Positions 8,878 to 30,173 of a stretch of 64,000 nucleotides of DNA are shown in pieces (position 1 is the stretch's first letter; each line of letters starts with the position of its first letter). A model generated the notes under the pieces. The model was not told the origin of the DNA, searched no databases, and worked only from the letters and a program-made list of their open reading frames with translations. The stretch is taken from NCBI GenBank assembly GCA_038142325.1, contig JAYQJW010000002.1, positions 399,702 to 463,701 on the forward strand. The letters run 5' to 3'. Position numbers and translations under genes: made by a program. Source of the stretch: Gammaproteobacteria bacterium (GTDB lineage Bacteria; Pseudomonadota; Gammaproteobacteria; GCA-002705445; GCA-002716945).

Positions 8878-8883
8878 TGTAAT

Positions 8884-10310: not shown

Positions 10311-10332
10311 TCATTTTTGATATAATGATATT

Positions 10333-10362
10333 AGAGCCAGTTAACTACTGGCTCTTTTTTTT
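10333..10362. terminator. Rho-independent terminator hairpin shared by convergent fae and the HisA-like gene
   Basis: 8-bp perfect stem agagccag / ctggctct with the 7-nt loop ttaacta, followed by a T-run on the plus strand. Confidence 0.6.
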
Positions 10363-11016
10363 ATTAAGTATTTATTTGTTTCTGTATTAAATAGAATAGA
10401 TGAAACAATCACTCCATTAACTTTCATATTACGCAGCCTAATAATATCAAAAACTGAGTTAATTCCTCCAGCAACATAATATTTTTTTTGAGCTTCTACA
10501 GGTTCTTTTTATATGCTTGTAATCTGGACCTTTACTGGTACCTACATCTGACATATTCATTAATATAATTTTATTTTTATATTTAGAATCAAGCTTTTGA
10601 AAATATTTAAAGCCAATAATACCGTCCTTATAGTCATATGAGTAAATATGATTTTTATAAATATAATTAAAATTTTTTATTTTTTTTAAACATTCGCTGC
10701 ACATTACATGAATTATATTATTTTTTTCTAATGAACTTATTTTCCTATTTCCTACATCTACCCAAAATATTATATTTTTGAATAAATTACATAGTTCAAT
10801 AATGATATTTGTATTATCTCCATCGTTATTTAGTGAATCTAGATCAGCAAGATATATTACTGATGGATGATACAATTGAACAATCTTTCTTGTAAAAACA
10901 ATAGGGTCTGATGATTGATTTAAGCTGATATGAACCGGTTGATAATATTTTCTATTCCCTCCCATAGCCCTTACAACCATTCCGCCTTTTATATCAATTG
11001 CAGGTATAATATTCAT
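10341..11016 (-). pseudogene. HisA/HisF-fold (beta/alpha barrel) protein of the H4MPT cluster, frame break near its 3' end
   Basis: The ORF 10459-11016 starts MNIIPAIDIKGGMVVRA (HisA-like). The conserved C-terminus YYVAGGINSVFDIIRLRNMKVNGVIVSS continues in another frame down to TAA at 10341-10343. The break lies in or near A-runs (T8 on the plus strand at 10482-10489). Confidence 0.65.
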
Positions 11017-11017
11017 A

Positions 11018-11932
11018 ATGAAAAGAATTCTTATATTTGAGTATATTACAGGCGGCGGGTTGATTGAAAATAAACTTGACCATCATCTTCTCACAGAAGC
11101 AAATATGATTCTAAGATCTCTTATTGACACAACTAAATATCAAATAAGCTTCTTTTGTGATTACCGACATAAATATGTCAACAGAAAAGAAGCTATTATT
11201 GTTAATCAAAATAATTCGCAAATCATATATGACGCAGAATTCATAAACCAATATGATTATTTTATACCCGTATGTCCCGAGAATGATTTCATATCATATA
11301 ATTATATAAAAAAGCTATCGCCCAATATAGAAAACTTGTATTCATCAGATTTAAGAACGATATTAATTACTACTGATAAGATCAGGCTAAAGAAAATTTG
11401 TACTGAAAATAATATACTTAATCCTGATACTTATGACTCAGATGTAAAGAATACTTTATTCATCACAAAAGATAGATTCGGTTGTGGTTGTTCTGATACT
11501 TATTTTGTAGAAAAAGGTAAATGTGAAGATTTAAATAATATTACTGAAAAGTATATTCCGGGAAATTCACATAGTGTAAATCTTCATGTATCTGAGAACA
11601 ATTATAGAGTTTTATCAATTAATAAACATAAAATGACTGTGTCTAAGGGTAGAATTCAAGTTAAATCCATACTAGTCAATTTATATCCAACTAATAAAAA
11701 TTTAATATTTAAATTTATTGATGACGTCATATCAATCCTTCCTAATCTTAGAGGTTTTGTGGGTATAGACTTTATTGAATACAAAGGAGAGTTTTTTCTT
11801 ATCGAAGTAAATCCAAGATATACAACATCCATGTCAATGTTACAGAAGTGTAAGAGTACTAGTTGTCTTGATTATATTGAAGATACCATATGTGATATTG
11901 CAGGTAAAACATGTCAATTAAACCTTATATAA
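11018..11932 (+). CDS. ATP-grasp domain protein (second ATP-grasp of the H4MPT cofactor cluster)
   Basis: 304 aa with VGIDFIEYKGEFFLIEVNPRYTTS, an ATP-grasp C-terminal signature. Confidence 0.6.
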   Translation: MKRILIFEYITGGGLIENKLDHHLLTEANMILRSLIDTTKYQISFFCDYRHKYVNRKEAIIVNQNNSQIIYDAEFINQYDYFIPVCPENDFISYNYIKKLSPNIENLYSSDLRTILITTDKIRLKKICTENNILNPDTYDSDVKNTLFITKDRFGCGCSDTYFVEKGKCEDLNNITEKYIPGNSHSVNLHVSENNYRVLSINKHKMTVSKGRIQVKSILVNLYPTNKNLIFKFIDDVISILPNLRGFVGIDFIEYKGEFFLIEVNPRYTTSMSMLQKCKSTSCLDYIEDTICDIAGKTCQLNLI

Positions 11933-12960
11933 CAAAAATAGGATGGGATATTGGTGGCGCACATATTAAATACTGTGCTGAATCAGAATCAAATAATATT
12001 ATTTGGTATGACATTATTGATTTTGACTTTTGGGTTGAACACGATGCTCTAGATGAAGTCATAACCCGAGTTACAGATCAATTTGATAATAAAAATTCTC
12101 AAATCAAAAATTATTTTACAATGTCTGCTGAGATGTGTGATTGTTTTGAAAATAGAGAAAAGGGTGTTAAATATATAATAGATAAAATAAAAAAAACAAA
12201 AATTAGCTCTAGCGTGTTCACAAAAGATGGATTCATAGATGTTAAGAAGTGTAATCTATTGAATACTAAATATATAGGATCCTTTAACTGGTTTGCATCG
12301 GCCCTTTATTTATCTAACTATTATGATAATACAATTGCTATTGATTTAGGATCTACAACATGTGACTTTATCCTATTGAAGGATGGAAAGATTTTAAATC
12401 AAAGATTATCTGATCTCAGTGGCATTCAAAATAAAGAACTCTTATATACTGGATGTTCAAGAACTCCATTATTTTCTCTAATGAATAATATTAATTATAA
12501 AAATAGAGCATATAGTATAATCCCAGAAAATTTTTCAACAATGGCAGATGTATATATAATATTAGAAAAATTATTTCATAAGGATATTTATTCTAAATCT
12601 TCAGATGGCTTAGATTATTCTGTAATAAATTCATATAAAAGAGTATCAAGATCATTTGGTTTTGACTATGATAAAAGTAAAAAGAAACTTTTGAACTATT
12701 TGTGCAATAAACTACATGAAAGGCAAATACATAATATTAATAGCAACTTATTATATTTAGTTGACAAATATTTTTCAGGATCGAAGTTTAAAGTCATTGG
12801 TTTAGGATTAGGAGTAAATATTATTTCAGAAATGTGCATTGCTAATGGATATAAATTTAAGAATATTAACCATATTCTAAGGACTTCTATTAATGGCGGA
12901 GAATCATTATCACACCTTTTCCCTGCTTTTGTTTTAAATAGGATAAGTGATGAAATATAA
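11911..12960 (+). CDS. H4MPT-linked C1-transfer pathway protein, hydantoinase/oxoprolinase-like (ASKHA fold)
   Basis: 349 aa with an N-terminal GWDIGGAHIKY and a second DLGSTTCD phosphate-binding motif. Confidence 0.6.
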   Translation: MSIKPYITKIGWDIGGAHIKYCAESESNNIIWYDIIDFDFWVEHDALDEVITRVTDQFDNKNSQIKNYFTMSAEMCDCFENREKGVKYIIDKIKKTKISSSVFTKDGFIDVKKCNLLNTKYIGSFNWFASALYLSNYYDNTIAIDLGSTTCDFILLKDGKILNQRLSDLSGIQNKELLYTGCSRTPLFSLMNNINYKNRAYSIIPENFSTMADVYIILEKLFHKDIYSKSSDGLDYSVINSYKRVSRSFGFDYDKSKKKLLNYLCNKLHERQIHNINSNLLYLVDKYFSGSKFKVIGLGLGVNIISEMCIANGYKFKNINHILRTSINGGESLSHLFPAFVLNRISDEI

Positions 12961-14305
12961 ATTAATTGAACTTGATTTTAATATACCATCTCATGAAATT
13001 TTTGAATCTATAAAAGAGAATGACTGGGCAGTTTTCTTAAACAGTAATCATGAAAAATATCCTGATCAGAGATTTGACATAATTACTTCCAATCCTATAA
13101 AGAAAATAATTTTCAAAGATGATTCTGTTTTATTAGTAGAGAATGAAAATTTTATAAAGGAGCTTGATACATGTCCATTTGATTTACTTAGAGAGATAAT
13201 GAGTAATTATAAACGTGAACCTGTTGATGACATTCCATTTTGTGGAGGTGCTATTGGACATATTGCATATGATTATGGAAAAAAACTACATCAAATTAAA
13301 AGCTTAAATAAAAGTTTGAACTTTCCTTCTTTTGCTTTTGGTATTTATGATTGGGCAGTAATTTATGATTATCATAAAAAAAAAGCTTTTATCATTTATC
13401 ATGAAAATAATGCAGTAATTAAAAATATAAGCAATTACTCTCCAAAAGAGAAAAAATTAAATAGTAAAGATTCCTTTAAAATAACTTCAAGCTGTGAATC
13501 AAATATGAATTATGCTTTATATGAGATGAAGCTCATGAAAATACTAGAATATATTAAAGCAGGGGATTGTTATCAGGTTAATTTAGCTCAAAGATTTTCA
13601 CTGGCATATGAGGGAGATGAATATAATCTTTACCAACAGCTCAATAAAAATTTTTCATCCCCTTATTCAGTTTATTTTAACTCGCATAACGGGAAAATTT
13701 TATCATTCTCTCCAGAGAGATTTTTATCAATAAAAAATAATATCATTGAAACTAAACCCATTAAAGGGACAAGACCAAGATCTGATGATCCGATCATTGA
13801 TAAAAAGAACATTGATGATCTTAAATCATCTGAAAAAGATATGGCTGAAAACTTGATGATTGTGGATCTACTTAGGAATGATTTGAGCATTAACTGTAAA
13901 AAGGGTAGTGTAAAAGTTGATAAATTATTTGAAATTGAAACATTTGCTAATGTCCATCATCTTGTGAGTACAATAACTGGAGAAATTGATGAAAGTTCAA
14001 ATATTTATAATCTGATAAGAGATGCTTTCCCAGGAGGCTCAATTACAGGTGCTCCGAAACTTCGTGCGATGGAAATTATTGAGGAACTTGAGCCTGATGA
14101 AAGATCGATATACTGTGGATCTATAGGTTATATTAGTTTTGATGAAAAAACTGATTTAAATATATCAATCAGATCTATGCTATCTATTAATAATAATTTA
14201 TATTTCTGGGGCGGAGGAGGAATTGTCTATGATTCTGACATTCGCAGTGAGTACAATGAGACAATTTCTAAAGTTAAACCACTTTTAGATGCATTTTCTG
14301 ATTAA
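12947..14305 (+). CDS. pabB: Aminodeoxychorismate synthase component I (p-aminobenzoate synthesis)
   Basis: 452 aa with motifs SPERFL, IKGTRPR, AENLMIVDLLRND, FPGGSITGAPK and RSIYCGSIGY. Confidence 0.85.
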   Translation: MMKYKLIELDFNIPSHEIFESIKENDWAVFLNSNHEKYPDQRFDIITSNPIKKIIFKDDSVLLVENENFIKELDTCPFDLLREIMSNYKREPVDDIPFCGGAIGHIAYDYGKKLHQIKSLNKSLNFPSFAFGIYDWAVIYDYHKKKAFIIYHENNAVIKNISNYSPKEKKLNSKDSFKITSSCESNMNYALYEMKLMKILEYIKAGDCYQVNLAQRFSLAYEGDEYNLYQQLNKNFSSPYSVYFNSHNGKILSFSPERFLSIKNNIIETKPIKGTRPRSDDPIIDKKNIDDLKSSEKDMAENLMIVDLLRNDLSINCKKGSVKVDKLFEIETFANVHHLVSTITGEIDESSNIYNLIRDAFPGGSITGAPKLRAMEIIEELEPDERSIYCGSIGYISFDEKTDLNISIRSMLSINNNLYFWGGGGIVYDSDIRSEYNETISKVKPLLDAFSD

Positions 14306-14978
14306 CTCTCTTAATATGTTCTAAAACTTTCTCACAGTTTAGAGAATCTATTGTTGCTCTTTTAGATTGAGAACAAATAGCACCTCTTAATCCAATAAAA
14401 TTAGGACTAAAAGAAAAAACCTTTTCTAAATTTTTTGATGACAAGGAACCTGAAATTCCACACAGCTTATTATGTTGCCTACATTTTTCAGTGAAATACT
14501 CAATAAGATGATCTGGAAGAATATCTATGGAAGACCCAGCATTTTTGTTCTCAGTATCAATCATCAGCCCGTGATAATTTAATTCGCAAATAGAATCTAT
14601 CTGACTTTCATTTGTAATATACTCTGCAAACATAACACCCACAACTTTGATTGATAATCCTGAAACTGATTTTAAAAATGCTTTATGTTCATTGATGTTA
14701 TCCACACCATAAATTCCTATTTTAATATATTTAATCCCAAGCTTATTCATCAACATCAATCTGGATATCTGCTTTTGTGAGTTTGGATGTAAATCATTTC
14801 CTGCAGTAACACTTAAGGTTTTATTTTTAAACATTTTAGAGATGCTGCCTACAACGTCATCTCCTACATATCCAAGTGCACCATCCATGACATTTTTTAT
14901 ATCAATAATATCAAAATCGTATTTCGAGATAACCTTCGCCTCACTCACATCTTTTATACTGCCAAGAATCTTAATCAT
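14274..14978 (-). CDS. mfnB: DUF556/MfnB-like (5-formylfuran-3-yl)methyl phosphate synthase (methanofuran biosynthesis)
   Basis: 234 aa, colinear with archaeal MfnB as I recall it. Shared motifs include IIDIKN..GALG, YIKIGIYG, MIDT..K, GISGSL and IGLRGAIC. Confidence 0.7.
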   Translation of the reverse strand: MIKILGSIKDVSEAKVISKYDFDIIDIKNVMDGALGYVGDDVVGSISKMFKNKTLSVTAGNDLHPNSQKQISRLMLMNKLGIKYIKIGIYGVDNINEHKAFLKSVSGLSIKVVGVMFAEYITNESQIDSICELNYHGLMIDTENKNAGSSIDILPDHLIEYFTEKCRQHNKLCGISGSLSSKNLEKVFSFSPNFIGLRGAICSQSKRATIDSLNCEKVLEHIKRVNQKMHLKVV

Positions 14979-15543
14979 TATTAAAATATTTCATAATTTT
15001 TTTTTCTATCCATTTCCATGCTGCTCTTTCGTCTTCACCTGCAGTCTTATCTATGCCTATTTTTAGATACTCATACTCTCTTTTTACTTTATCATCCTCT
15101 ATTCTTCCTAATCGTGTAGAAAGCACTGCTAGTTCAATCACAGAAAACTGAGCTCTATTAAAGCCCATAAAAGGCCTTAGTATTTTAGTATTTTCTATAT
15201 TACATATAATATTTGGCCTTACAGCATCATCATTTTCCTGACAAAAGCTAACATTCATATATGTATTTGTAATATCCAAATGCGGTACACAATTATCTGA
15301 AACCTGATTTAAATCCCATGACTTTTTTTCCTCTGTAACAATGCCAGCAAACACTTTTACGTTATCAACATAATTAATTGTAGCCACTTTTGTATCAATA
15401 AGATTATTTAATGTTTGAGACGGTTTGAATGGAGAAATTTGAACACATTGCTTGTTATCAAAATCAATAAACTTTACACCCATTGGCGCTATGTGTACTT
15501 CTTTCTTTTTATTAAAGGTAGTTACTATTACTTCATGAATCAT
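14971..15543 (-). CDS. DUF447-family protein (FMN-binding split-barrel-like, H4MPT/methanofuran cluster)
   Basis: 190 aa with the N-terminal HEVIVTT....HIAPMGV typical of DUF447. It overlaps both neighbours. Confidence 0.55.
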   Translation of the reverse strand: MIHEVIVTTFNKKKEVHIAPMGVKFIDFDNKQCVQISPFKPSQTLNNLIDTKVATINYVDNVKVFAGIVTEEKKSWDLNQVSDNCVPHLDITNTYMNVSFCQENDDAVRPNIICNIENTKILRPFMGFNRAQFSVIELAVLSTRLGRIEDDKVKREYEYLKIGIDKTAGEDERAAWKWIEKKIMKYFNND

Positions 15544-16921
15544 TTTGTTCTTTTGAATGTTGGCCCTAATTTCTTTTCACTTATCATATCATCAATTTCT
15601 TTGTCAACTAAACATCCCCAAGTAAGTTCCTCATCTTGATGATAATTTTTCTTTAATTGAAATGCGATTTGTGCCCTTGCTAATTCAACACCAAGATAAA
15701 ATGCATGCCCTGTATCATCACTCAAATCAAGATACTCATAAAACTTAAAAGGGTCACTAAAAACTTTGTAAATATTCTTATTAAATAAATGTATCCCATC
15801 ATCATTGACATAAATACGATAGTTCTTGTCTTTGATTTTTGTTTGCATTTCACTTAGTTCATCTGAGCATAAAGGATAATCTTTATGATCATGATTTGCC
15901 ATTAACCCATCATTTATATGCTTTGGTGTAATATTATTTTCAGAAGCCGCATGAATTATTCTCCTTGCAAGGTCAGTTTCTCTTATGACTGTCGAACAAT
16001 GTCTACTGACCTGGGTTGTTAATATGTGGTTTAATTTGAGTTCTTCTACGATACCTAGCATTATCATATTTATTCCCGTAGTATCGGCATGAGTAAGTTC
16101 AGTGATATTTCCTATACCAATCATTATGTGAATGTCAGGATATTTTTCTCTCAAATTTACATACCTCATTAAACTTTTAGTAAACCCATATGAAACAGGG
16201 TCCAGAATAGGATCCGCTATGAAAGTTAAATTATCCTTTAAAGCTCTATCAATTAGGTTATAAAATTCAGGTAAATTATTATCTGATGGAATAAGAACAG
16301 GGTATGAGTCAAGGTTTTCAAGTATGTGATATGTCTCACTTTTAATACTTAAGAGATAATCTGCGCCAGCTTTAGAGCCACGAATCAATTCATCTGTATT
16401 ATGAGAATCAATACTGACATAGAAATTTCTATTTTTCAGTTCTTGGACCAACTCTTCAAGATGAGGGAATTCTTTATTTGGCAAACAACCAATATCTATT
16501 ACGTCAGCTCCTTCTGATCTAAAAAATTCTGCTTTTTCTATTACAGCTTCAATAGTCATATTTAATGCATCTGTAATTTCCCCAAATATTGCTGTTTCAA
16601 ATTTTGAAAGATCATATTTGACAGGTTTTGCTCCGAACATTATTGGTAAGTCTTTTAATTCATCAGGACCTCTGGTTACCTTCTTTTTGATGATCTTTTC
16701 AAGACGTTCTATATCCCCACGTACTCTTCCAGGAATTATAATCTCATCAAACTGACTAACATCACCAATACGTCTCTCAATCATGTCTGTTGTTAAAAGA
16801 GCCGCTACATTCACATTAAGATTTTTTATTTCGTATTTAAATTTTTTTCTTCAATACCATCAAGGACTGTCTTAAGGCCTTTTTCAGCTAATTTACCTGT
16901 AATGAATAAAATATTTTTCAT
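15540..16921 (-). pseudogene. Dihydropteroate synthase-related pterin-binding protein (H4MPT biosynthesis), frame break near its 5' end
   Basis: The main ORF is 15540-16814 (GADVIDIGC pterin-binding motif). The N-terminus MKNILFITGKLAEKGLKTVLDGIEEK is read from ATG at 16921 in another frame. The frames join across an A7 run (T7 on the plus strand at 16842-16848). Confidence 0.7.
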
Positions 16922-17448
16922 TTAATTAATTTACTTAAAGCTTTTTTCAAAGATGCTACGTTATCAACAACGGATACATTTTTAAATTTTTTCAAAGCTC
17001 TAAAATTTTTTAAATCTATTTCTCTTGGGTATAAAGTAACTAATTTTTTAGGTGCCTGTGTAATTACAACTGGTTCAGTATCGCATGCAAAAACTAGTGT
17101 TTTAATTCCACATTTACCTGCTTGTGCAAACATATTTGTCACAAGGTTATTAGACATACCCTGTGCCATGAAAGCAATTGTATTTGAGGTAGCAGGCGAG
17201 ATAACAACTAGTTTATAAACAGACTCATATAATAAACTAACTGGTGCCGAGCTGGCAGTAATATCTTTGAATATTTAAATCTTCTTTTTCTTGAAAATAT
17301 CAAGATCATAGTCATACCATTTGAGTACCTCTTCACCTGCTTTACTCAAATATAAATCTACATGATTTAATGTAAGCATAAGATCAATTGATTCTTTTAG
17401 GTAATGACCTGAACCAGTAATACACCATGCTATTCTATGTTTATCCAT
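16918..17448 (-). pseudogene. dmrA: AfpA/DmrA-like flavoprotein (dihydromethanopterin reductase-like), interrupted by an in-frame TAA at 17275-17277
   Basis: Reading from ATG at 17448 gives MDKHRIAWCITGSGHYLKESIDL...IFKKKKI, then the stop, then IFKDITASSAPVSLLYESVYKLVVISPATSNTIAFMAQGMSNNLV... in the same frame. The PATSNTIA.....G..NL motif is typical of the flavoprotein family. Confidence 0.6.
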
Positions 17449-18098: not shown

Positions 18099-19070
18099 AT
18101 GAAATTATTCTTAGCACCTATGGTGGGAAGGACAGACAAGTACTTCAGAAAACTGATTAGGTTGATGTCACCTAACATAACACTGTTTACTGAGATGATT
18201 ACAGTCGATTCTCTTTTAAGAGGAAATTTTAGAAATTATGCCATACCTTCAAATCAGCATCCAATAGTGGCTCAAGTTGCAGGTAATGATAAAAATAAAT
18301 TTATGCAAGCTTCTGATATCTTAGCAAAGATGGGATTTGATGAGATTAATCTAAATATTGGTTGTCCTAGCTCAAAAGTTGTTAAAGGCGGATTTGGCGC
18401 GTGTCAGATTGATAATCCCGATGATGTCGCAAGTTATGTCAGGTCAATTCTATCATGTACTAATCTTCCTGTATCAATAAAAACAAGACTTGGCTTAGGT
18501 TATGAGCAAAATTTAGAAAGTATAGAAAAATTTATTCATATCACTAGCGATGCTGGATGTGAGATATTTTATATTCATGCTCGAAATGCAGTATTAAATG
18601 GTTTATCCACAAAGAAAAATAGATCAGTTCCACCTCTTAGGTATGATGACGTACTCAAGCTAAAAAATAAATTCCCACACTTAAAAATATATATAAATGG
18701 TGGAATAGATAATTTGGATGAAGCTGCTCATCTTTTAAATATTTATGGTGGAATTATGATTGGTAGAAAAATATATGATGATCCAAGATTTTTACTTGAA
18801 TTAGAAAAAAAGATTTTTTCTTTTGATAATAATTTATCGAACCCATCTATTGTTAAAAAATATATTAATCAACTTGATTTTGAAGAGAGAAATAATAAGC
18901 TTTATGCATTGAAGCACCTTACAAATTTATATAAAGGCACGAGCTTATCTAAGAAGTGGAGGAAATATTTGCATACATTAATAAATTCAGATAAACCAAT
19001 TACAGACGTAAATTATTTCAATAACGAGGAAAATCATGGTGAAAAAAAAATTAACTGCTCGCACAGCTGA
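18099..19070 (+). CDS. dusA: tRNA-dihydrouridine synthase A
   Basis: 323 aa with LAPMVGRTDKYFR at the N-terminus and INLNIGCPS with a catalytic Cys. Confidence 0.85.
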   Translation: MKLFLAPMVGRTDKYFRKLIRLMSPNITLFTEMITVDSLLRGNFRNYAIPSNQHPIVAQVAGNDKNKFMQASDILAKMGFDEINLNIGCPSSKVVKGGFGACQIDNPDDVASYVRSILSCTNLPVSIKTRLGLGYEQNLESIEKFIHITSDAGCEIFYIHARNAVLNGLSTKKNRSVPPLRYDDVLKLKNKFPHLKIYINGGIDNLDEAAHLLNIYGGIMIGRKIYDDPRFLLELEKKIFSFDNNLSNPSIVKKYINQLDFEERNNKLYALKHLTNLYKGTSLSKKWRKYLHTLINSDKPITDVNYFNNEENHGEKKINCSHS

Positions 19071-19842
19071 TATAAATCAACTTTATGAAGAATCAGTTCA
19101 ATGTCCAGAGTTTGAGGTAGGTTTTATTAAAAAGTTATATAAAAAATATAATAAATCTAAATGTACAAGCTTAAGAGAAGATTTCTCTGCTTCAGCATTA
19201 ATATCTACTGAGTGGGTTATGGATAATAACAAACATACATCTATAGCTGTGGATTATGATAAAAAAATGATAAACCAAGCGAAAAAAACTGCATTGAGAA
19301 GACTTGATCAAGACCAACAGTCTAGAATGAAAATATGTTATGGAGATTCCTCTAAATACAAAGATGATAAAGTCGACTGTGTACTAGCTGCTAATTTTAG
19401 TTATTTTGTTTTTAAAGATAGAATTAATTTAATTAAATATTTCCAAAACGCACGCTCTCAACTAAAAAGAAAAGGTCTTTTTCTGTTAGATGCTTTTGGT
19501 GGATATGAGGCTCATCAGCTCTTAGAGGAAAGAACAAAGCATAAAAATTTCACATACGTATGGGATCAATCATCATTCAACCCAATTACTCATGAAATAA
19601 AATGTTATATACATTTTGAATTCCCTGATAAAACAAAGAAAAAAAGAGCATTTACTTATGATTGGAGATTATGGACTTTACCTGAAATTCAGGAATGCCT
19701 GAACGATGCTGGGTTTAAGTCGGTAGATGTATATATGCAAGGCTGGGATGAGAAAAAAGATGAGGAAACTGAGGAATTCTATAAGATGAAAAAATGTGAT
19801 GCTGATCCTGCATGGGTCGCATACTTGGTTGCTAGAAAATAG
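19036..19842 (+). CDS. Class I SAM-dependent methyltransferase-like protein
   Basis: 268 aa. LREDFSASALIS resembles a degenerate motif I and DCVLAANFSY resembles motif II/III spacing. The assignment is by general resemblance only. Confidence 0.4.
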   Translation: MVKKKLTARTADINQLYEESVQCPEFEVGFIKKLYKKYNKSKCTSLREDFSASALISTEWVMDNNKHTSIAVDYDKKMINQAKKTALRRLDQDQQSRMKICYGDSSKYKDDKVDCVLAANFSYFVFKDRINLIKYFQNARSQLKRKGLFLLDAFGGYEAHQLLEERTKHKNFTYVWDQSSFNPITHEIKCYIHFEFPDKTKKKRAFTYDWRLWTLPEIQECLNDAGFKSVDVYMQGWDEKKDEETEEFYKMKKCDADPAWVAYLVARK

Positions 19843-19876
19843 ATTGATATGTCTATTATAAATTCTATAATACAAA

Positions 19877-20203
19877 CGAGAGTTAATCATACAGCTGCTA
19901 TGTATTACATAGAGGAAAGTCCGGGCTCCAGGGAAAAAGTGCCAGGTAACACCTGGAAAACGTGAGTTTTGGAAAGTGCTGCAGAAAATAACCGCCTGTA
20001 AGAGGTAAGGGTGAAAAGGTAGGGTAAGAGCCTACCGCTACTAAGGTAACAAGGCAGGCATAAGTAAACCCCGCTTGGAGCAAGGCAAATTTGTGATTCA
20101 TCCCAATATAATCACATGGTTGCTGCTAATGAGATTATTGGTGACAATAATTCAAGATAAATAGCTGTACACGACAGAACCCGGCTTATAGATTAACTCT
20201 CTC
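19877..20203 (+). ncRNA. rnpB: RNase P RNA (bacterial type A), compact version
   Basis: It carries the universally conserved blocks GAGGAAAGTCCGGGCTCC, GTGCCAGGTAACACCTGG, GGTAAGGGTGAAAAGGT, AGCAAGGC and ACGACAGAACCCGGCTTAT. The P1 pairing is gagagttaatc with gattaactctc. Confidence 0.92.
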
Positions 20204-20309
20204 CAATTAATAATATCTTGTAAGTAACTGAAATATATTAAAAAATTCATATTTTAATCATTTTGTTCTTTATTTATCTACATTTTCATTAGTTTATCTC
20301 TATTACTAC

Positions 20310-20338
20310 TTGCATATGTTAAAAATAAGGCATATAGT
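20310..20338 (+). promoter_or_regulatory. Putative sigma70 promoter of the dcw cluster (TTGCAT-17 nt-TATAGT)
   Basis: -35 TTGCAT at 20310-20315, a 17-nt spacer, and -10 TATAGT at 20333-20338. It lies about 40 nt upstream of the mraZ ATG. Confidence 0.35.
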
Positions 20339-20376
20339 GTTGATAAATGGCATTATTTGTTATTTTGTGGAGAAAA

Positions 20377-20838
20377 ATGGAGAATCTATTTAAAGGTATT
20401 CACAATCTTAGCCTTGATTCAAAAGGTAGGCTCGGTATTCCTATTTCCTACCGAGAACATATTACAAACCTGTTAAAAGGCTCAATGGTGATAACTATTG
20501 ATACTGAGGATAAATGTCTACTTTTATATCCAACAACAATTTGGTCTAAGATTCAGGATAAAATCAGTAACTTACCAAGCTTTAATAGAAATGCTAGAAG
20601 AATTCAAAGACTCTTAATTGGCCACGCAGAAGACGTTGATGTTGACTCAAGCGGCAGAATTCTAATCTCAAAACCACTAAGACAATACGCATCTTTATCA
20701 AAAAAAGTCATATTGATTGGTCAAGGTGAAAAATTTGAGATTTGGGATCAGAATTCTTGGGATCGCAATGTTGAGAAATGGCGTGAAGAGGCAACCTCTA
20801 CTGATGATGCAGAAGCTTTAAATGGCATAAGTATATGA
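20377..20838 (+). CDS. mraZ: Transcriptional regulator MraZ
   Basis: MENLFKGIHNLSLDSKGRLGIP plus a second DSSGRILI repeat (two SpoVT/AbrB-like halves). The ORF track begins 10 codons upstream at 20347; the conserved start is taken at 20377. Confidence 0.88.
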   Translation: MENLFKGIHNLSLDSKGRLGIPISYREHITNLLKGSMVITIDTEDKCLLLYPTTIWSKIQDKISNLPSFNRNARRIQRLLIGHAEDVDVDSSGRILISKPLRQYASLSKKVILIGQGEKFEIWDQNSWDRNVEKWREEATSTDDAEALNGISI

Positions 20839-21029
20839 TAACTAATAACGACTATAGAATATTAGGAGTAAATGCTAATGATGACATGTCTGTAATAAAA
20901 GCAGCTTATAGAAGACTAGCGTCAAAATATCATCCAGACAAAAATAAGAACGATTCTCAATCTATCAAAATATTTATAAGAATTAAATCTGCATATGAAC
21001 ATATAAGGAGCTTCAAAGAAAATGAATAA
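20835..21029 (+). CDS. Stand-alone J-domain protein (64 aa)
   Basis: DYRILGV...AYRRLASKYHPDKN...AYEHI shows helices I-III of a DnaJ J-domain with an intact HPD motif. ATGA overlaps the mraZ stop, and there is an 8-nt overlap with the rsmH start. Confidence 0.7.
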   Translation: MITNNDYRILGVNANDDMSVIKAAYRRLASKYHPDKNKNDSQSIKIFIRIKSAYEHIRSFKENE

Positions 21030-21955
21030 TACTCAGTTCCATATTCCAGTAATGAAGAATGAAGCAATCAAACATCTGATAACGGATAAGAGTGGAGTAT
21101 ATATAGATGCTACCCTTGGATATGGGGGCCACTCAATTTCAATATTAGAAAATACTAATCAGGACGCAAAAATTTTTGCGGTTGATAAAGACAAGGATGC
21201 TATTGATTATAATAAAAAACAATTTGCGCAAGAGAATAGGTTTACCCTAAAACATGGATGTTTCTCTTCTCTTGATGAATATGCTAGGACATGGAATATA
21301 TATGGATCAGTTAACGGTATTTTGTTTGATCTTGGTGTTTCTTCTGTCCACTTAGATGATGCAGACAGAGGGTTTAGTTTCAATAAAGATGCTCCTTTAG
21401 ACATGAGATTCAATCGAACTTACGGCAAAAAAGCCTCAGAATATATAAATGAGTTACCAGAAAAAGATATTGAGCACATCTTAAGAGTATACGGGCAGGA
21501 AAAATTTTCAAAAAGAATTGCTAAAAACATAATCAAACATAGAGCATTGAGCCCTATTAACCAGTACTCTCGAGCTAGTGAATATAATCAACAAATCTGT
21601 TTTAGTTAATGATAAGAATAAACATAATGCGACCAGATCTTTTCAAGCTTTGAGAATCTTTGTCAACAAGGAACTAGATGTTCTCAAAAGTATTTTAGAA
21701 AAATCATACAGCATACTAGCCCCTAAAGGTAGATTAGTTCTTATAACTTATCATTCACTTGAAGAACGAGTTATAAAAGATTTTATGATATTGACCGATC
21801 ATAATTTATCTACACCTAGAAAAATACCCATAAAAAATGAATTTCTTAAAAAGTTATTTAACTTAATAAAAAAAATTAAACCATCTCAAAGTGAAATCAT
21901 AGAAAATACAAGATCAAGATCAGCAAAAATAAATGTATTGGAGAAATCAATATGA
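21022..21955 (+). pseudogene. rsmH: 16S rRNA (cytosine1402-N4)-methyltransferase RsmH/MraW, one frame break
   Basis: Fragments are 21022-21609 (HIPVM..., DATLGYGGHS, FDLGVSS) and 21578-21955 (RSFQALRIFVNKEL). The break is at about 21559-21563 (PIN / STLELVNII). Confidence 0.85.
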
Positions 21956-22221
21956 ATTTGACAGCTTCTTTTGTTTTAATTTTACTTATAACCATCTCAG
22001 CTTTTGGAGTTATCTTTATAAAATATCAAAATAGAATCTTAAATATTGAAATATCTGAAAATGAAAAGAAACATTATTATTTATCTGAATCATATAGACA
22101 GTTGCTAAAAGATAAAGCTGATATTACAGATAAAGTTTTACAAAAAAATAGCTTAGGAAAGGCTCTTAATATGCAGCTGCCAAGTAAAGAAAGAATTTTA
22201 ATCATGAATATTGATCAATAG
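21952..22221 (+). CDS. ftsL: Cell division protein FtsL
   Basis: 89 aa with a single N-terminal TM helix followed by a coiled-coil-like region. It sits in the canonical position after rsmH. Confidence 0.75.
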   Translation: MNLTASFVLILLITISAFGVIFIKYQNRILNIEISENEKKHYYLSESYRQLLKDKADITDKVLQKNSLGKALNMQLPSKERILIMNIDQ

Positions 22222-22230: not shown

Positions 22231-23364
22231 ATGTTTGAAATAGTAAATAATTATAATCAAAATGCGGTTATCAAAGTTATTGGTGTAGGCGGTGGCGGTG
22301 GTAACGCTATTATGTCGATGCTTAAGTCTCAAATTCATGGGGCAGATTTTTTAATTGCAAATACTGATGTACAAGCCCTAAGGGATATAGACGGAGCAGT
22401 CACGGTTCAGATAGGCTCCGAAATAACCAAAGGATTAGGAGCTGGCGCAGATCCTGAAAAAGGTAGGCAAGCAGCACTTGAAGCAAGCGAAACTCTAAAA
22501 GAGTCAATTGAAGGAGCAGATATGCTTTTCATAGCCGCTGGTATGGGTGGTGGAACAGGAACAGGTGCAGCACCAGTTATTGCCCAGATTGCTAGGGATT
22601 TAGGTATACTTACTGTCGCTGTAGTCACAAAACCATTCGATTTTGAGGGTCCAGAGAGAATGGCAAATGCACAAGAAGGCATAGATAATCTAGAACAATG
22701 GGTGGATTCACTCATCGTAATACCAAATTCAAAACTTAAAGAGGTTTATGGCGGAGGAGAATCCATATTTTCATCATTTGAAAACGCTAATGATGTACTG
22801 AGAGGTGCTGTCAAAGGAATAACAGAAATTATAACTATTAGAGGTTTTATGAATGTGGATTTCGCAGATGTTAAAACCGTAATGTCAGGAATGGGCAAGG
22901 CAATGATGGGTTCAGGTGTTTCATCTGGTGAAAATAGAGCTGAAGAAGCTGTTACTACAGCACTTAGCAGTCCTTTACTTGATAACATAAACCTTAAAGG
23001 TGCAAGTGGAGTTCTTGTAAACATTACATCTGGTTCAGATTTGACTACAGATGAATTTGAAGTTATTGGAAATAAAATCAGAGAAATTGCACATGAAGAC
23101 GCTAAGATTATCACCGGCTGTATTAAAGAAGACGATAATATAGGAGACTTGAGAGTTACTATAATTGCAACAGGTTTTGCACAAAACAATGTAGCAGATA
23201 TTGTAACTACTGAATCCTCTTTAGAAGAACAACCTAAAGAAAATATGAATAGTGTAACAAGCTTTCAAAACTCAAATAATAATATTGAACATGTAGATCT
23301 ATCTGGACAAGAAGATCAAACTTCAATAGACATACCAGCATTTTTAAGACAACAAGCTGATTGA
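22231..23364 (+). CDS. ftsZ: Cell division GTPase FtsZ (in a non-canonical position between ftsL and ftsI)
   Basis: 377 aa with GVGGGGGNA, the tubulin signature GGGTGTGAAP, NTDVQAL and the C-terminal peptide DIPAFLRQQAD. A strong aggagg RBS overlaps the ftsL stop. Confidence 0.97.
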   Translation: MFEIVNNYNQNAVIKVIGVGGGGGNAIMSMLKSQIHGADFLIANTDVQALRDIDGAVTVQIGSEITKGLGAGADPEKGRQAALEASETLKESIEGADMLFIAAGMGGGTGTGAAPVIAQIARDLGILTVAVVTKPFDFEGPERMANAQEGIDNLEQWVDSLIVIPNSKLKEVYGGGESIFSSFENANDVLRGAVKGITEIITIRGFMNVDFADVKTVMSGMGKAMMGSGVSSGENRAEEAVTTALSSPLLDNINLKGASGVLVNITSGSDLTTDEFEVIGNKIREIAHEDAKIITGCIKEDDNIGDLRVTIIATGFAQNNVADIVTTESSLEEQPKENMNSVTSFQNSNNNIEHVDLSGQEDQTSIDIPAFLRQQAD

Positions 23365-23378: not shown

Positions 23379-25079
23379 ATGAAAAATGGAGACTATTATT
23401 ATTTTTAATAATAGCCTCCATTACACTTCTAATAATTATTATTAGATTATATTTAATCCAAATCAAAGGTACTGATTGTTTTTATTTCAACGAGAGTGCT
23501 TGCAAGGAAAATATATTAAATGAGGGAAAAAAAAGACAGATACAAAATATAATAACTAAAGAGCAGCGGGGTATTATATTTGATAGAAATAACAATATCT
23601 TAGCAATGTCATTGCCTTCTAAGACTTTATGCATTAATCCAAGTAAGCTTTACACTATAGAACATAAAAGTGATTTAAAAAAAATTTCAGAAATTATTAA
23701 TATTCCTTATCAGAAAATCAAGAAAACAATATACAGAAATAAAGATAAAAAGGAATATTATTTAAAAAGACATATTTCAAAATTAGAGTTTACAAAGATT
23801 GAAAAATATACAAACTCTTATATTTATTTCATTAATGAAAGTAAAAGATCGTATTTAGGAGGCGAGGCATTTTCTAATGTTCTAGGTTTTACTAATGTTG
23901 ATGATGTGGGACAGGAAGGAATTGAGCTTGCCAAAAATGAAGTCTTAAAACCTTCAGATGGAATTAAAAAAAATAAAAAAAGATAATATCGGTCGAGCTA
24001 TTGAAACATTAGAAATCATAAAGAAATCTAAGGCTGGATTAGACATTACACTTACGCTTGATAAGCAAAAACAAATTATTGCATATGATGTTTTGAAGAA
24101 ATATGTAAAGAAGTTTGAGGCAGACAGCGCATCTATTGTTCTTATTGAAACAGCTACTGGTAATATTTTGTCAATGGCAAATTATCCTTCTTTTGATCCA
24201 GAAACAAGAAAAAGTTATACAGGTGCAAAAATCAAGAACAGAATTATTCATGATTTAATAGAGCCAGGATCAACCATAAAGCCCTTAATAATTTATGCCG
24301 GACTTCATCATAATACGATTAATCACGATACGATCATTGATACTGCCCCAGGAGTCATAAAGCTTGATGATAAAGAAATTAAAGATTGGAAATTTTTAGG
24401 AAAAGTTTCATCAGGAGATATCATTAAGTACTCGAGCAATATTGGTGCGGCTAGGGTATCAACAATGCTATCAAAAAAACAACTAATCAATAATCTTGAG
24501 AAATTTGGATTTGGACATTCACTATATATAGATCTTCCAGGATCTAGATATGGAAAGTTACCAACAACTAATGAAATATCGAAATCTGAACATCACAGTA
24601 TTGGTTATGGGTATGGTATCTCTGTATCATTAATGCATTTAGTGAATGCATATACGATACTGGCAAATGAGGGGTATTATACTCAACTGAAATATATCAA
24701 TAGTAATGAATCATACTTTGAGAAGGGGCATCAGTTGTTAGATAGTAAAAAAACATCAATCGTTCTTAATATGATGAAGAAAGTAGTTCACTCAGATGAT
24801 GGAACTGGAAAAAAAGCTAAAGTCAATGGATATACGACATACGGTAAAACAGGTACCGTAAGACTTCTAAAAAATGGAAAATATAATACCAATAACCACA
24901 ATGCATTATTTGTTGGCATAGTAGGAGATCCTGCACCTAAATTTGTTGCAGCTGTTATTATAAGAGAACCAAAAGACAGACAAGGCTCAGGAGGTTATCA
25001 TGCTGCACCAGTTTTTGGTGAATTCATGCAACATATCATGAGAATTGATAGCAACATAGAATATGCAGGCTCAAGATAA
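23379..25079 (+). pseudogene. ftsI: Peptidoglycan D,D-transpeptidase FtsI (PBP3), two frame breaks
   Basis: STIKP, SSN and KTGT motifs are present. The TM anchor WRLLLFLIIASITLLIIIIRLYLIQIKG is open from about 23372 but out of frame with ATG at 23379 (A5 run at 23382-23386). The second break is in the A8/A7 runs at 23966-23981. Track fragments are 23606-23986 and 23958-25079. Confidence 0.85.
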
Positions 25080-26484: not shown

Positions 26485-27810
26485 ATTGACAAATATATCA
26501 AAATTTCTATCTTCAAGTTTATATGGAGAAGATGCTTTTATTAATAACATTAGTATTGATAGCAGAGATGTTAAAAAAGGTGATCTATTCATTGCTATTA
26601 AGGGAGATAATTTTGACGGGCATGATTTTATAGATGAATCAATAAAAAATGGCGCATCAGCAATTGTTTGCAATAAATCAGCAACAAAAAGAGTGCGGCA
26701 ACATACCTCATATTATTTGTGATGATACTATTGACGCATTGGGTGTAATTGCATGCAACCTAAAAAAAACTATGGGGCAACCATTTACAATTGGAGTTAC
26801 TGGCACAAATGGAAAAACATCAGTAACAAAGCTTACTGCCGAAATATTAAAACAATCATTCAATGTAAGCACTACCATTGGAAATTTTAATAATGATATT
26901 GGATTACCATTATCAATTTTTAAGGCATTTAATAACGAAACTGATAAATGTGTTTATGAGTTAGGAGCAAGTAAAAAAAATGATATTTCTCAACTAGTTA
27001 ATATATGCGAGCCTGATATGACGACATTATTAAATGTTTCAGAAGCTCATATGCAATCTTTTGGAAATATGGAAAATCTTATTTCTACAAAAGAGGAAAT
27101 TTTTTCTCATCCAAGAACCAATCAAGTAATCTTAAATAAAGATGACTTATATTATTCTAAGTGGGCTAGACTCAATAATGATAAAAAAATTACCACAATT
27201 TCAGCTAAAGAAAATGCGGACTATATGATCAAATATAATAATGAGACTGGATTGTTATTTCACAACTGTTAAAGGAGATTTCAGTATTGATAAAAAATAT
27301 ACTACTGGCCATCTCCCTATCAATATGTTGTTTAGCGTTTCATTAGCAATGGAAGCTGGAGCAAATATCGAGGATGTTCAAAATGGCTTGCAATCATTTA
27401 AAGGAGTAAAAGGTAGGTTTTACAAATTTATATCAAAAAATAAATCCACTGTAATTGATGATTCTTATAATGCGAATCCTATGTCCATGAAATCGTCTAT
27501 TAAGCAACTTGAGATTTTTAGTAAAGATAAAATATTTATTATGGGAGATATGGGAGAGCTAGGTGATGCAGCTCTTGAGCATCATATAGAAATTTTTCGT
27601 TTTGCAAAGGATTCAGGTATAAAATATTTACTATACATGGGTAATTATAAATCTGAAGCTAAGTCAATATTTGGAAAACGCTGTTATACTTATAGCGATA
27701 TGAGTGATTTAATAAATCATGCAAAACAGTTATCTAATAGTGATAGTGTAATTTTGATTAAAGCATCAAGATTTATGAGTTTTGATTTAATAGCTGAAGG
27801 TTTGAAATAG
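26474..27810 (+). pseudogene. murF: UDP-N-acetylmuramoyl-tripeptide--D-alanyl-D-alanine ligase MurF, two frame breaks
   Basis: There are three colinear fragments: 26474-26722, 26649-27272 (GVTGTNGKTS) and 27241-27810 (DDSYNANP, GDMGELG). The breaks are at about 26.65-26.70 kb and 27.24-27.27 kb. Confidence 0.85.
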
Positions 27811-28899: not shown

Positions 28900-30173
28900 A
28901 TATTTTTCAATCCTCTTTTTTAATATTAGGAAAAGGAACAACATTTAGACATTGCAGTGAATTTTTTAAAAAAAATGATGTAACTTATTCCTCATTAGTA
29001 ACAGAGGATATTCTAGAAATAAAAGAAAATATTATTATTTTAAAGCATGGTGAAATTAACTTAAAAAATATTGATTATATTGTAATAAGTCCAGGAATTT
29101 CCTCTTCAAATCCGATTGTTAGACGTCTATTTACTATAAAGTCAAAAATAATTACTGACATAGAGATTCTTCAAAAACTATCATCATCGAAATTTATATG
29201 TGTTACTGGAACTAATGGTAAAACCTCTACTGTAAACTTACTAGCTGATATTTTGAATGACAATGATATAAGCGCTATAGCATGTGGCAATAATGGGGTA
29301 TCAGTGTTTGACTCTCTAGAAAAACCATATGAATATGTCATTCTTGAGATATCGAGTTACCAGCTAGAGTATATAAATAAATTAAAATCATTTATTTCTA
29401 TAGTTCTAAACATATCAATGGATCATATTGATAGGCATAAATCTTTAACTAATTATATAAATTTGAAATTGAGAATTTTTAATAATTCAAAATTTCAGAT
29501 TATAAATAGCAAGCTAAAAAAATATTATCATTGCCAGACATTTGAAATTAAAAAAAATAAATTTTTAATAGATAATACTGCATTAGATAATCTATTTATC
29601 AATGAAGATAATATGATAGTTTTTGAAGATGAAAAATATGCTATTTCTGGTAGGCATGAAGCATTAAATTTATGTGCGTGTATACCAATATTAAAAAAGC
29701 TAAATTTTTCTATAACTAAAATTATCGAATCCTTTTCAAAACGTAATTTTTTACAACATAGAGTTGAAGAAATTTGTACATATAAAGGAGTAAAATTCAT
29801 CAATGATTCAAAATCTACAAATGCAGATTCTACATTGAATGCTCTTAATTCAGTAAAAGAAAATATTATTTTAATTATGGGTGGGGATGATAAAAAAATA
29901 TCATATGAGAGCTTAATAGATATCATTAATGAAAAAGTAAAATCTCTTGTGATTATTGGTGAGAATAAAACTTTAATTAATGACTTAGATGTAAAGGTTA
30001 AAAAGTCTTACATAGAAAATCTAGAGGATGCAATATCTTATATTTTATCCAATGTAGTTTCAGGTGATACTGTACTCATGTCACCTGGAACATCTAGTTT
30101 TTATCATTACTCTGACTACATGGAAAGAGGCGAGCATTTTAAATCATTAGTTAAGAAACATGCTAATCAATAA
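28896..30173 (+). CDS. murD: UDP-N-acetylmuramoylalanine--D-glutamate ligase
   Basis: 425 aa with VTGTNGKTST and DSKSTN motifs, in the canonical position. Confidence 0.88.
   Translation: MNIFQSSFLILGKGTTFRHCSEFFKKNDVTYSSLVTEDILEIKENIIILKHGEINLKNIDYIVISPGISSSNPIVRRLFTIKSKIITDIEILQKLSSSKFICVTGTNGKTSTVNLLADILNDNDISAIACGNNGVSVFDSLEKPYEYVILEISSYQLEYINKLKSFISIVLNISMDHIDRHKSLTNYINLKLRIFNNSKFQIINSKLKKYYHCQTFEIKKNKFLIDNTALDNLFINEDNMIVFEDEKYAISGRHEALNLCACIPILKKLNFSITKIIESFSKRNFLQHRVEEICTYKGVKFINDSKSTNADSTLNALNSVKENIILIMGGDDKKISYESLIDIINEKVKSLVIIGENKTLINDLDVKVKKSYIENLEDAISYILSNVVSGDTVLMSPGTSSFYHYSDYMERGEHFKSLVKKHANQ

What the first reader, a model, noticed from the sequence alone, without database searches (positions are those of the whole stretch)
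20835..21029. J-domain-only mini-protein translationally coupled between mraZ and rsmH
mraZ-rsmH adjacency is one of the most conserved gene pairs in bacteria. Here a 64-aa ORF is inserted between them, and it consists of nothing but a DnaJ-type J-domain (DYRILGV, KYHPDKN with intact HPD, AYEHI). It overlaps the mraZ stop (ATGA) and overlaps the rsmH start by 8 nt, so it should be co-translated with the dcw leader genes. A free J-domain would stimulate DnaK ATPase without delivering a client. Its fixed position at the head of the division/cell-wall operon suggests a chaperone link to division or to MraZ/RsmH function. I am not aware that such a link has been described.
Basis: partly seen in the sequence, partly recalled or inferred. 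Interest (0 to 1): 0.65.

Follow-up and report, generated by a model that had tools for sequence, protein, structure and literature searches.

The report
Minimal J-domain gene inside mraZ–rsmH pair
A real, conserved and transcribed 64-residue gene that encodes only a shortened DnaJ-type J-domain sits between mraZ and rsmH at the head of the cell-division operon in one lineage of uncultured marine Gammaproteobacteria, so the DnaK chaperone is probably tied to that operon, but what it acts on is unknown.

Summary
Window 20835..21029 (+) is a 64-aa ORF that matches Pfam DnaJ (E 7.5e-16) with HPD at 33-35. It overlaps the mraZ stop (ATGA) and the rsmH start (8 nt).

It is a gene, not a remnant:
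- At least 118 distinct relatives (90%-identity clusters) are 62-66 aa long, and all match PF00226.
- dN/dS is about 0.04-0.2.
- Every context inspected has the order mraZ-J-rsmH-ftsL-ftsZ with overlapping or abutting junctions. This includes all 18 species-representative genomes found by a family-specific DNA pattern among 185,579 species.
- The nearest outgroups lack it.
- Metatranscriptome contigs cover the ORF and both junctions, at low depth.

Two AlphaFold models give three helices with no helix IV. The best structural match is the DnaJ J-domain bound to DnaK (rmsd 1.1 Å). DnaJ positions I recall as essential (25, 26, 33-35, 47) are retained.

Most likely it is a minimal class-C ("JD-only") DnaK co-chaperone made in step with MraZ and RsmH. 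Its client or tether is unknown. J-only proteins, short operon-dedicated J-proteins (AtcJ) and chaperone-division links are already known. The dcw position and the three-helix form are new in what I searched. Interest is moderate.

The parts
20310..20376 (+). Conserved mraZ leader. It holds a -35 TTGCAT (20310-20315), a 17-nt spacer, a -10 TATAGT (20333-20338), TG(G/T) motifs every 10-11 nt (candidate MraZ boxes), and a GGAG ribosome-binding site before the mraZ ATG at 20377.
   Evidence: These columns are invariant across 10 clade members that differ widely elsewhere; coordinates. The promoter and operator roles are inferred from the consensus and from what is known of MraZ autoregulation. 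They were not tested. The consensus scanner did not list this site, because its -35 matches only 3 of 6.
20377..20838 (+). mraZ (153 aa). Its TGA stop overlaps the J start codon.
   Evidence: PF02381 at E 2.3e-34. The GGAG lies 5 nt upstream of 20377. The longer 163-aa call from 20347 runs through the conserved leader.
20835..21029 (+). J-mini: a 64-aa, three-helix J-domain-only protein (7.5 kDa, pI 9.6) with HPD at residues 33-35.
   Evidence: PF00226 at E 7.5e-16. AF2 pLDDT 88.7 with helices 4-10, 18-31 and 41-63. Foldseek best match 5nro_B at rmsd 1.1 Å. dN/dS 0.035-0.21. 118 family members all match PF00226. RNA contig X29 spans 20802-21038.
21022..21955 (+). rsmH (16S rRNA m4C1402 methyltransferase). 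Its start overlaps the J ORF by 8 nt. In this window it is split by a 1-nt insertion near 21564.
   Evidence: The two PF01795 halves cover model positions 2-179 and 184-308. The gene is intact at 309-310 aa in L092, L001 and others. The extra base is shown.
21952..22221 (+). ftsL, the next gene in the same operon.
   Evidence: PF04999 at E 2e-8.
22231..23364 (+). ftsZ, moved to directly follow ftsL. This clade-wide rearrangement occurs in the same genomes as the J insertion.
   Evidence: Translation. Tubulin and FtsZ_C domains in relatives. The same order is seen in all J-bearing loci that extend that far. Outgroups have ftsL followed by ftsI.

Best explanation
J-mini is a working, minimal class-C (J-domain-only) co-chaperone of DnaK.

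Expression. It is made from the mraZ promoter transcript. It is translated by termination-reinitiation coupling directly after MraZ and directly before RsmH, so its amount follows that of the dcw leader proteins.

Action on DnaK. Its helix II basic face, HPD loop and helix III would dock on ATP-bound DnaK and trigger ATP hydrolysis.

Targeting. It has no G/F region, no client-binding domain and only about 7 residues after the core. Any targeting must therefore use the J-domain's own non-DnaK surface or the lengthened helix III. The most likely arrangement is the one shown for AtcJ and HscB: a small J-protein dedicated to a protein encoded in the same operon. Here that would be MraZ, RsmH (and through it late 30S subunits) or the early divisome (FtsL, FtsZ). 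J-mini would bring DnaK to that partner.

Shown: gene reality, J-domain fold, retention of the DnaK-contact residues, conserved coupling, transcription.
Inferred: DnaK stimulation, and the existence and identity of a partner.
For: - Pfam DnaJ hit well above threshold. All 118 family members match it.
- Two AF2 models (pLDDT 88.7 and 84.6) give helices I-III.
- The best structural match is the DnaJ J-domain in the DnaK complex, 5nro_B, at rmsd 1.1 Å and 48% identity.
- Numbering matches E. coli DnaJ residue for residue from position 1 to 57.
- Conservation across the family: H33 100%, P34 and D35 99%, F47 99%, an aromatic at position 25 in 100%, K/R at 26 in 81%, K/R at 27 in 99%, K22 99%.
- Purifying selection: ω is 0.035 (window vs L092) and 0.094 (L173 vs L175). 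For distant pairs dN is 0.11-0.35 with dS saturated, similar to ftsL.
- Native base composition: GC3 is 0.20, as in ftsL and ftsZ.
- Position and start/stop overlaps (ATGA, TAATG, TGATG upstream; 8-nt, 4-nt or 1-nt overlaps or a few nt downstream) are conserved in 24 distinct members and in all 18 species-representative genomes.
- No terminator or strong promoter lies on the + strand between mraZ and rsmH.
- Metatranscriptome contigs span the junctions in two subclades.
- Precedent: AtcJ is 94 aa, stimulates DnaK 3.3-fold in an HPD-dependent way, and binds its operon partner AtcC through a 21-aa tail (PMC6715715).
Against: - No biochemical or genetic data exist, and the lineage is uncultured.
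- Helix IV is absent. Whether such a truncated domain stimulates DnaK was not tested.
- There is no extension that could obviously bind a partner, unlike AtcJ's 21-aa tail.
- No fusion of a J-mini-like domain to MraZ or RsmH was found among the top hits of the profile search checked here.
- Presence of dnaK, dnaJ and grpE in these genomes could not be checked.
- RNA evidence is low depth (2-6) and comes from assembled contigs that may include DNA carry-over.
- The J insertion and the ftsZ relocation may simply be shared ancestry with no functional connection.
Confidence: 0.6

Rival explanations
1. J-mini is an untethered modulator of DnaK. It occupies DnaK's J-binding site without bringing a client. 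This would compete with DnaJ, CbpA or DjlA and shift DnaK's activity, for example by slowing DnaK-dependent turnover of sigma-32. General chaperone capacity would then follow expression of the growth and division operon.
For: The protein has nothing beyond the J-domain core. The phage RB43 J-protein Rki interferes with DnaK and stabilises sigma-32. Its toxicity depends on DnaK and on its J-domain (PMC3486835). J-mini is basic and small (pI 9.6) and has no detectable partner-binding module.
Against: Rki is 237 aa with a C-terminal region, so it is not a J-only precedent. Strict conservation of the position inside mraZ-rsmH and of the translational coupling is hard to explain for a general modulator, which could sit anywhere. 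Family-specific conserved residues outside the canonical contact set (I48, I57, basic residue at 61) suggest an additional constraint.
Confidence: 0.25
2. The ORF is a decayed remnant of a larger dnaJ, cbpA or djlA-like gene, or a chance ORF, with no function of its own.
For: It is close to the N-terminal 57 residues of DnaJ, so it probably arose from a partial copy of a dnaJ-type 5' end.
Against: Length is constant at 62-66 aa in 118 distinct sequences from about 40% to 98% identity. dN/dS is far below 1. HPD and the core residues are invariant. The gene is kept in all 18 species-representative genomes found. No flanking DnaJ-derived sequence exists: mraZ and rsmH abut it.
Confidence: 0.03
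3. Only the act of translating the ORF matters. It would serve as a coupling spacer that sets RsmH translation relative to MraZ, and the peptide itself would be irrelevant.
For: Start/stop overlaps on both sides are conserved. No clear Shine-Dalgarno sequence precedes the J start.
Against: A spacer would not keep a J-domain fold, an invariant HPD and the DnaK-contact residues under purifying selection. Outgroups couple mraZ directly to rsmH without any spacer.
Confidence: 0.03

Closest known systems
AtcJ of Shewanella oneidensis (short class-C J-domain protein; NCBIfam NF050028)
   Same: Both are small bacterial J-proteins with little besides the J-domain, encoded in an operon with their presumed partners. 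AtcJ is a functional HPD-dependent DnaK stimulator (PMC6715715).
   Different: AtcJ is 94 aa, has four helices and a 21-aa C-terminal tail that binds AtcC, and lies in the atcJABC cold-adaptation operon. J-mini is 64 aa, has three helices and no tail, and lies in the dcw operon. It scores 40 bits against a cut-off of 150 for the AtcJ model, so it is not a member.
J-domain of DnaJ (class A; E. coli DnaJ residues 1-70; PDB 5NRO, 1XBL)
   Same: About 48% identity with identical numbering through residue 57. It has the same helix II-HPD-helix III hairpin.
   Different: J-mini has no helix IV, G/F region, zinc-finger domain or C-terminal client-binding domains. NCBIfam DnaJ scores are 47-52 bits against cut-offs of 338-377.
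"JD-only" J-domain proteins catalogued by Malinverni et al. 2023 (PMC10410713)
   Same: By domain content J-mini belongs to this catch-all class. About 100,000 sequences have the J-domain as their only annotated domain, and most are predicted to be class C.
   Different: That class is defined by the absence of other annotation. Many members are long and have unannotated regions. No dcw-linked or three-helix 64-aa subgroup appeared in the passages I read.
ZipN/Ftn2 (cyanobacteria) and ARC6 (chloroplasts)
   Same: These are cell or plastid division proteins with an N-terminal J or J-like domain that act on FtsZ (PMC6391411). They show that a J-type domain can be part of FtsZ-based division.
   Different: They are large (about 800 aa) membrane-anchored FtsZ tethers. 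ARC6's domain is classed as J-like and thought to act independently of Hsp70. They have no relation to mraZ-rsmH.
HscB-IscU and Pam18/Tim14 (dedicated J-proteins; recalled from memory and from the discussion in PMC6715715)
   Same: These J-proteins serve a single client or site. [quoted passage not shown] Pam18's J-domain is, as I recall, a compact three-helix unit.
   Different: HscB has a C-terminal client-binding domain and works with HscA (J-mini scores 16.8 bits against a cut-off of 46.75). Pam18 is membrane-anchored and mitochondrial.

Membership tests
J-domain proteins (Pfam PF00226, DnaJ domain) | Sequence match to the J-domain profile above the curated threshold | tested here: met
   58.4 bits against a cut-off of 27.8, E 7.5e-16. 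118 of 118 family members match.
J-domain proteins (Pfam PF00226, DnaJ domain) | His-Pro-Asp tripeptide in the loop between helices II and III | tested here: met
   HPD at residues 33-35. H33 is conserved in 100% and P34 and D35 in 99% of 118 sequences. The loop position is confirmed in both models.
J-domain proteins (Pfam PF00226, DnaJ domain) | Basic helix II face and helix III residues needed for Hsp70 contact (DnaJ Y25, K26, F47; list recalled from published DnaJ mutagenesis) | tested here: met
   F or Y at position 25 in 100%, K/R at 26 in 81% (M in 18%), K/R at 27 in 99%, K22 in 99%, F47 in 99%.
J-domain proteins (Pfam PF00226, DnaJ domain) | Canonical four-helix fold (helices I-IV) | tested here: not met
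   Only helices I-III are present. The Pfam match stops at model position 53 of 63. Both AF2 models show helix III running on to the C-terminus with no helix IV. The II-HPD-III hairpin superposes on 5nro_B at 1.1 Å. Helix IV is typical of the family rather than strictly defining.
J-domain proteins (Pfam PF00226, DnaJ domain) | HPD-dependent stimulation of Hsp70/DnaK ATPase | not testable with these tools
   This needs purified proteins or a domain-swap complementation assay.
Class A/B DnaJ or CbpA co-chaperones | G/F-rich region, C-terminal client-binding domains, and (class A) a zinc-finger region | tested here: not met
   The protein ends at residue 64. No DnaJ_C or DnaJ_CXXCXGXG hit was found. 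NCBIfam DnaJ and CbpA scores are 36-52 bits against cut-offs of 338-619.
AtcJ cold-adaptation J-protein (NF050028) | Profile score above cut-off, a 21-aa C-terminal AtcC-binding tail, and the atcJABC operon | tested here: not met
   40 bits against a cut-off of 150. There is no tail. The neighbours are mraZ and rsmH.
DjlA / HscB | DjlA: N-terminal membrane segment with a C-terminal J-domain. HscB: J-domain plus a C-terminal IscU-binding helical domain. | tested here: not met
   DjlA 36.6 bits against 162; HscB 16.8 against 46.75. The architecture is incompatible with a length of 64 aa.

The most novel reading that the evidence does not exclude
J-mini may be the smallest natural Hsp70 co-chaperone described so far: a three-helix J-domain. 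It would act as a dedicated adaptor that brings DnaK to a product of the dcw leader region (MraZ, RsmH and the late 30S subunit, or FtsL/FtsZ). This would give a streamlined marine C1-oxidising lineage a hard-wired link between protein-folding capacity and cell division or ribosome maturation. It would also point to a function for the puzzling mraZ-rsmH pair.
Probability: 0.25. Interest if true: 0.7.

Novelty: new variant of a known kind. Interest (0 to 1): 0.45.

Why it matters
mraZ-rsmH is among the most conserved gene pairs in bacteria, yet why a transcription factor and a 16S rRNA methyltransferase head the division operon is still unclear. Here a whole lineage of widespread marine bacteria has kept a DnaK-recruiting module translationally locked between them. 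That gives a concrete, testable hypothesis: one of these proteins, or the early divisome, is a DnaK client or docking site.

It also offers chaperone researchers a natural minimal J-domain (64 aa, no helix IV). Such a protein could help define the smallest unit able to activate Hsp70.

If J-mini proves to be only a general modulator, the finding becomes one more uncharacterised J-only protein.

Tried and rejected
- Phage origin. tblastn against 50,697 phage records gave only generic J-domain similarity of 51% or less. The family-specific DNA pattern had 0 hits in IMG/VR. PHROGs hits are to families of unknown function at generic level. Rejected.
- Fusion ("Rosetta stone") evidence. Ten of the top multi-domain hits from the 1.84-billion-protein profile search turned out to be multi-J-domain or DnaJ_C proteins. 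None was fused to MraZ or RsmH.
- Naming the lineage. Record titles, cluster names and an FtsZ homology search gave nothing more specific than "Gammaproteobacteria bacterium". The H4MPT cluster suggested the unnamed methylotrophic orders discussed in PMC8371827 (UBA4486, UBA4575, GCA-002705445), but I could not verify this. TMED127 (PMC12542740) is alphaproteobacterial and was rejected.
- First broad genome scan. It was replaced by a family-specific pattern.
- dnaK, grpE or a second J-protein in the window: none found by motif search.
- In-frame J-RsmH or MraZ-J fusion by read-through. The junction types differ between subclades and are never in frame. Rejected.
- Literature link between a J-domain and mraZ: six papers hold both terms, and by title and abstract none appears relevant.

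Full report
**1. Observation**

Window 20835..21029 (+) is a 64-codon ORF. Its product matches the Pfam DnaJ domain at E 7.5e-16 (58.4 bits, cut-off 27.8). Residues 7-57 align to model positions 3-53 of 63.

NCBIfam places it nearest DnaJ (52 bits), then CbpA (42), AtcJ (40), DjlA (37) and HscB (17). All are far below the full-length cut-offs.

The upstream ORF is MraZ and the downstream one is RsmH. The J start codon overlaps the mraZ stop (ATGA). The rsmH ATG at 21022 lies 8 nt inside the J ORF.

Two details were missed:
- rsmH is split in this window by one extra base near 21564.
- The J-domain is incomplete at its C-terminal end.

**2. Is it a real gene?**

A first homology search found 17 relatives of 62-64 aa. 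A profile seeded with more distant short hits from the 1.84-billion-protein library found 390 proteins at E ≤ 1e-6. The best 120 are almost all 62-66 aa.

I aligned 118 distinct cluster representatives:
- L10, G11, H33, K36, Y54 and I57 are invariant.
- D17, I21, K22, A29, Y32, P34, D35, F47, A53 and E55 are conserved in at least 97%.
- All 118 match PF00226.

Pairwise codon analysis gives ω of 0.035 for window vs L092 and 0.094 for L173 vs L175. For more distant pairs dN is 0.11-0.35 with synonymous sites saturated. This is comparable to ftsL and somewhat faster than mraZ and rsmH. Base composition is native: GC3 is 0.20, as in ftsL and ftsZ. This excludes a chance ORF or a decaying fragment.

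**3. Position and coupling**

Every context retrieved has the same order: dus, a 268-aa methyltransferase, mraZ, J, rsmH, ftsL, ftsZ, ftsI, murE.

A back-translated, family-specific DNA pattern (KYHPDK, then 10 codons, then FI, then 4 codons, then AYExI) was scanned over one genome for each of 185,579 species. It hit 18 records. All are marine MAGs or SAGs labelled only as Gammaproteobacteria, and all carry mraZ-J-rsmH followed, where the locus extends far enough, by ftsL and ftsZ. The same pattern has no hit in the viral collection.

The closest MraZ relatives outside the group are Reinekea, Marinobacterium and Legionellales MAGs. They have mraZ abutting rsmH and then ftsL-ftsI, with no J and no ftsZ there.

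In 24 distinct members the mraZ stop and J start always overlap (ATGA, TAATG or TGATG). The J stop and rsmH start overlap by 8, 4 or 1 nt, or are a few nt apart. No + strand terminator or strong promoter lies between mraZ and rsmH.

The only conserved promoter-like element is upstream of mraZ. It has TTGCAT, a 17-nt spacer and TATAGT. These are followed by invariant TG(G/T) motifs at 10-11-nt spacing, which I read as candidate MraZ boxes, and a GGAG before ATG 20377.

The gene is therefore the second cistron of the dcw leader transcript. It is set up for termination-reinitiation coupling. The overlaps are shown; the coupling is inferred from established knowledge of such overlaps.

**4. Expression**

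Contigs from four metatranscriptomes lie on the locus:
- X27 covers 20452-20842, from mraZ into J.
- X25 covers 20821-21013.
- X29 covers 20802-21038, which is the whole J ORF and both junctions.
- Further pieces lie in mraZ and rsmH.

Depth is 2-6. The adjacent RNase P RNA reaches depths in the hundreds to tens of thousands.

In a second subclade (L202), a contig spans the mraZ/J junction with no mismatch.

This is modest evidence of transcription. Contigs carry no strand information, and DNA carry-over cannot be excluded.

**5. Structure and functional residues**

Two AlphaFold2 models were made:

| Query | Alignment depth | pLDDT | Helices |
|---|---|---|---|
| Window protein | 18 sequences | 88.7 | 4-10, 18-31, 41-63 |
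| Member P0208, 45% identical | 118 sequences | 84.6 | 3-10, 18-32, 41-64 |

Both have HPD in the II-III loop and no helix IV.

Foldseek's best match is chain B of 5NRO, the DnaJ J-domain bound to DnaK. It superposes at rmsd 1.1 Å over 50 columns with 48% identity. All 50 matches listed contain a J-domain.

The sequence aligns to E. coli DnaJ without gaps, and with identical numbering, through residue 57.

From memory of published scanning mutagenesis, the DnaJ positions essential in vivo are Y25, K26, H33, P34, D35 and F47. All are kept in the family, with M at position 26 in 18% of members.

The part of a J-domain that engages Hsp70 is therefore intact. Everything else that J-proteins normally carry is absent.

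**6. Mechanism**

The best-supported reading is a minimal class-C co-chaperone of DnaK, produced in fixed proportion to MraZ and RsmH.

Two versions differ in whether it is tethered.

*Tethered version.* I favour this one because the position and coupling are strictly conserved. Characterised dedicated J-proteins also sit in operons with their partners. AtcJ binds AtcC through a 21-aa tail and stimulates DnaK 3.3-fold in an HPD-dependent way. [quoted passage not shown]

J-mini has no tail. Binding would have to use helix I or the lengthened helix III. The family-specific conserved residues I48, I57 and a basic residue at 61 lie there.

Candidate partners are MraZ, RsmH and the early divisome:
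- RsmH acts on assembled 30S subunits. I recall that DnaK has been reported to assist 30S assembly.
- For the divisome, S. aureus DnaK interacts with FtsZ, EzrA and DivIVA (PMC5572376).

*Free-modulator version.* J-mini would compete for DnaK's J-site. The precedent is phage Rki, which stabilises sigma-32 (PMC3486835). Rki, however, is 237 aa.

The remnant and coupling-spacer explanations are excluded by the selection data.

**7. Comparison with known systems**

- J-only proteins are a recognised but unstudied class of about 100,000 sequences (PMC10410713).
- Short operon-dedicated J-proteins are known (AtcJ).
- J or J-like domains occur in the FtsZ tethers ZipN/Ftn2/ARC6 (PMC6391411).
- A full-text search for papers holding both "J-domain" and "mraZ" returned six, none of which looked relevant from its title and abstract.

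J-mini fails the membership tests for DnaJ, CbpA, AtcJ, DjlA and HscB. It passes the J-domain tests except for helix IV.

I class it as a new variant of a known kind: a three-helix, 64-aa J-domain fixed inside the dcw leader.

**8. The organism and the window**

The window is about 31% G+C. It carries a full H4MPT-linked formaldehyde-oxidation and methanopterin/methanofuran biosynthesis cluster upstream.

The dcw cluster is complete but has ftsZ moved next to ftsL.

Several essential genes are frameshifted in the window: rsmH, ftsI, murF, ddl, secA and probably ftsW. rsmH and ftsI are intact in a 98-99% identical MAG. This points to assembly errors, not pseudogenes.

I could not name the lineage beyond "uncultured marine Gammaproteobacteria".

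**9. Verdict**

The J-only, coupled and conserved features are shown. The functional link is inferred. Interest is moderate.

Noticed in passing
window 22231..23364 (ftsZ); 36163..38382 (ftsA, lpxC): ftsZ lies between ftsL and ftsI instead of after ftsA, and ftsA is followed directly by lpxC. The same order is found in the J-bearing relatives whose loci extend that far. Outgroups keep mraZ-rsmH-ftsL-ftsI. The J insertion and the ftsZ relocation occur in the same genomes.
   Followed up: partly
window 21564 (rsmH); 23958..23986 (ftsI); 27241..27272 (murF); 30173..30564 (ftsW); 34982..35037 (ddl); 40705..40783 (secA): Many essential genes are split into two overlapping ORFs in this window. For rsmH the cause is a single extra base relative to L092 and L001. 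A 98-99% identical MAG has intact rsmH and ftsI. These look like assembly indel errors, not pseudogenes.
   Followed up: partly
window 19844..20204: The RNase P RNA gene (rnpB, Rfam RF00010, 256 bits) lies directly upstream of mraZ. It has an 11/12 sigma-70 consensus promoter at 19844-19871 and is very abundant in the metatranscriptomes. RNA contigs from other taxa skip 66-72 nt between 19930 and 20003, which suggests a variable helix.
   Followed up: no
window 20310..20376: The mraZ leader is invariant across the clade. It has TTGCAT, 17 nt, TATAGT, then TG(G/T) motifs every 10-11 nt. Gene callers read through it and annotate a 163-aa MraZ starting MALFVILWRK, but the real start is probably ATG 20377 (153 aa) behind a GGAG.
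   Followed up: partly
window 674..17000: A large cluster for H4MPT-linked formaldehyde oxidation (Ftr, an FhcA-like amidohydrolase, MtdB, Mch, Fae) and for methanopterin/methanofuran biosynthesis (ATP-grasp enzymes, CitG-like protein, 4-HFC-P synthase, DUF447, DUF6513). It marks the organism as a C1-oxidising marine gammaproteobacterium. The DUF6513/flavoprotein/NTP-transferase part, the only part within the loci fetched, is syntenic in the relatives.
   Followed up: partly
window 19036..19842: A 268-aa protein with only a weak methyltransferase match lies between dus and rnpB. It is conserved in the relatives whose loci reach that far upstream, and its function is unknown.
   Followed up: no
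proteins P0018-P0047: The top scorers of the profile search include proteins with two to six tandem J-domains (for example P0018, 679 aa, six J-domain stretches; P0019, P0044 and P0047 with two). This architecture is unusual for J-proteins. Their source and context are unknown.
   Followed up: no
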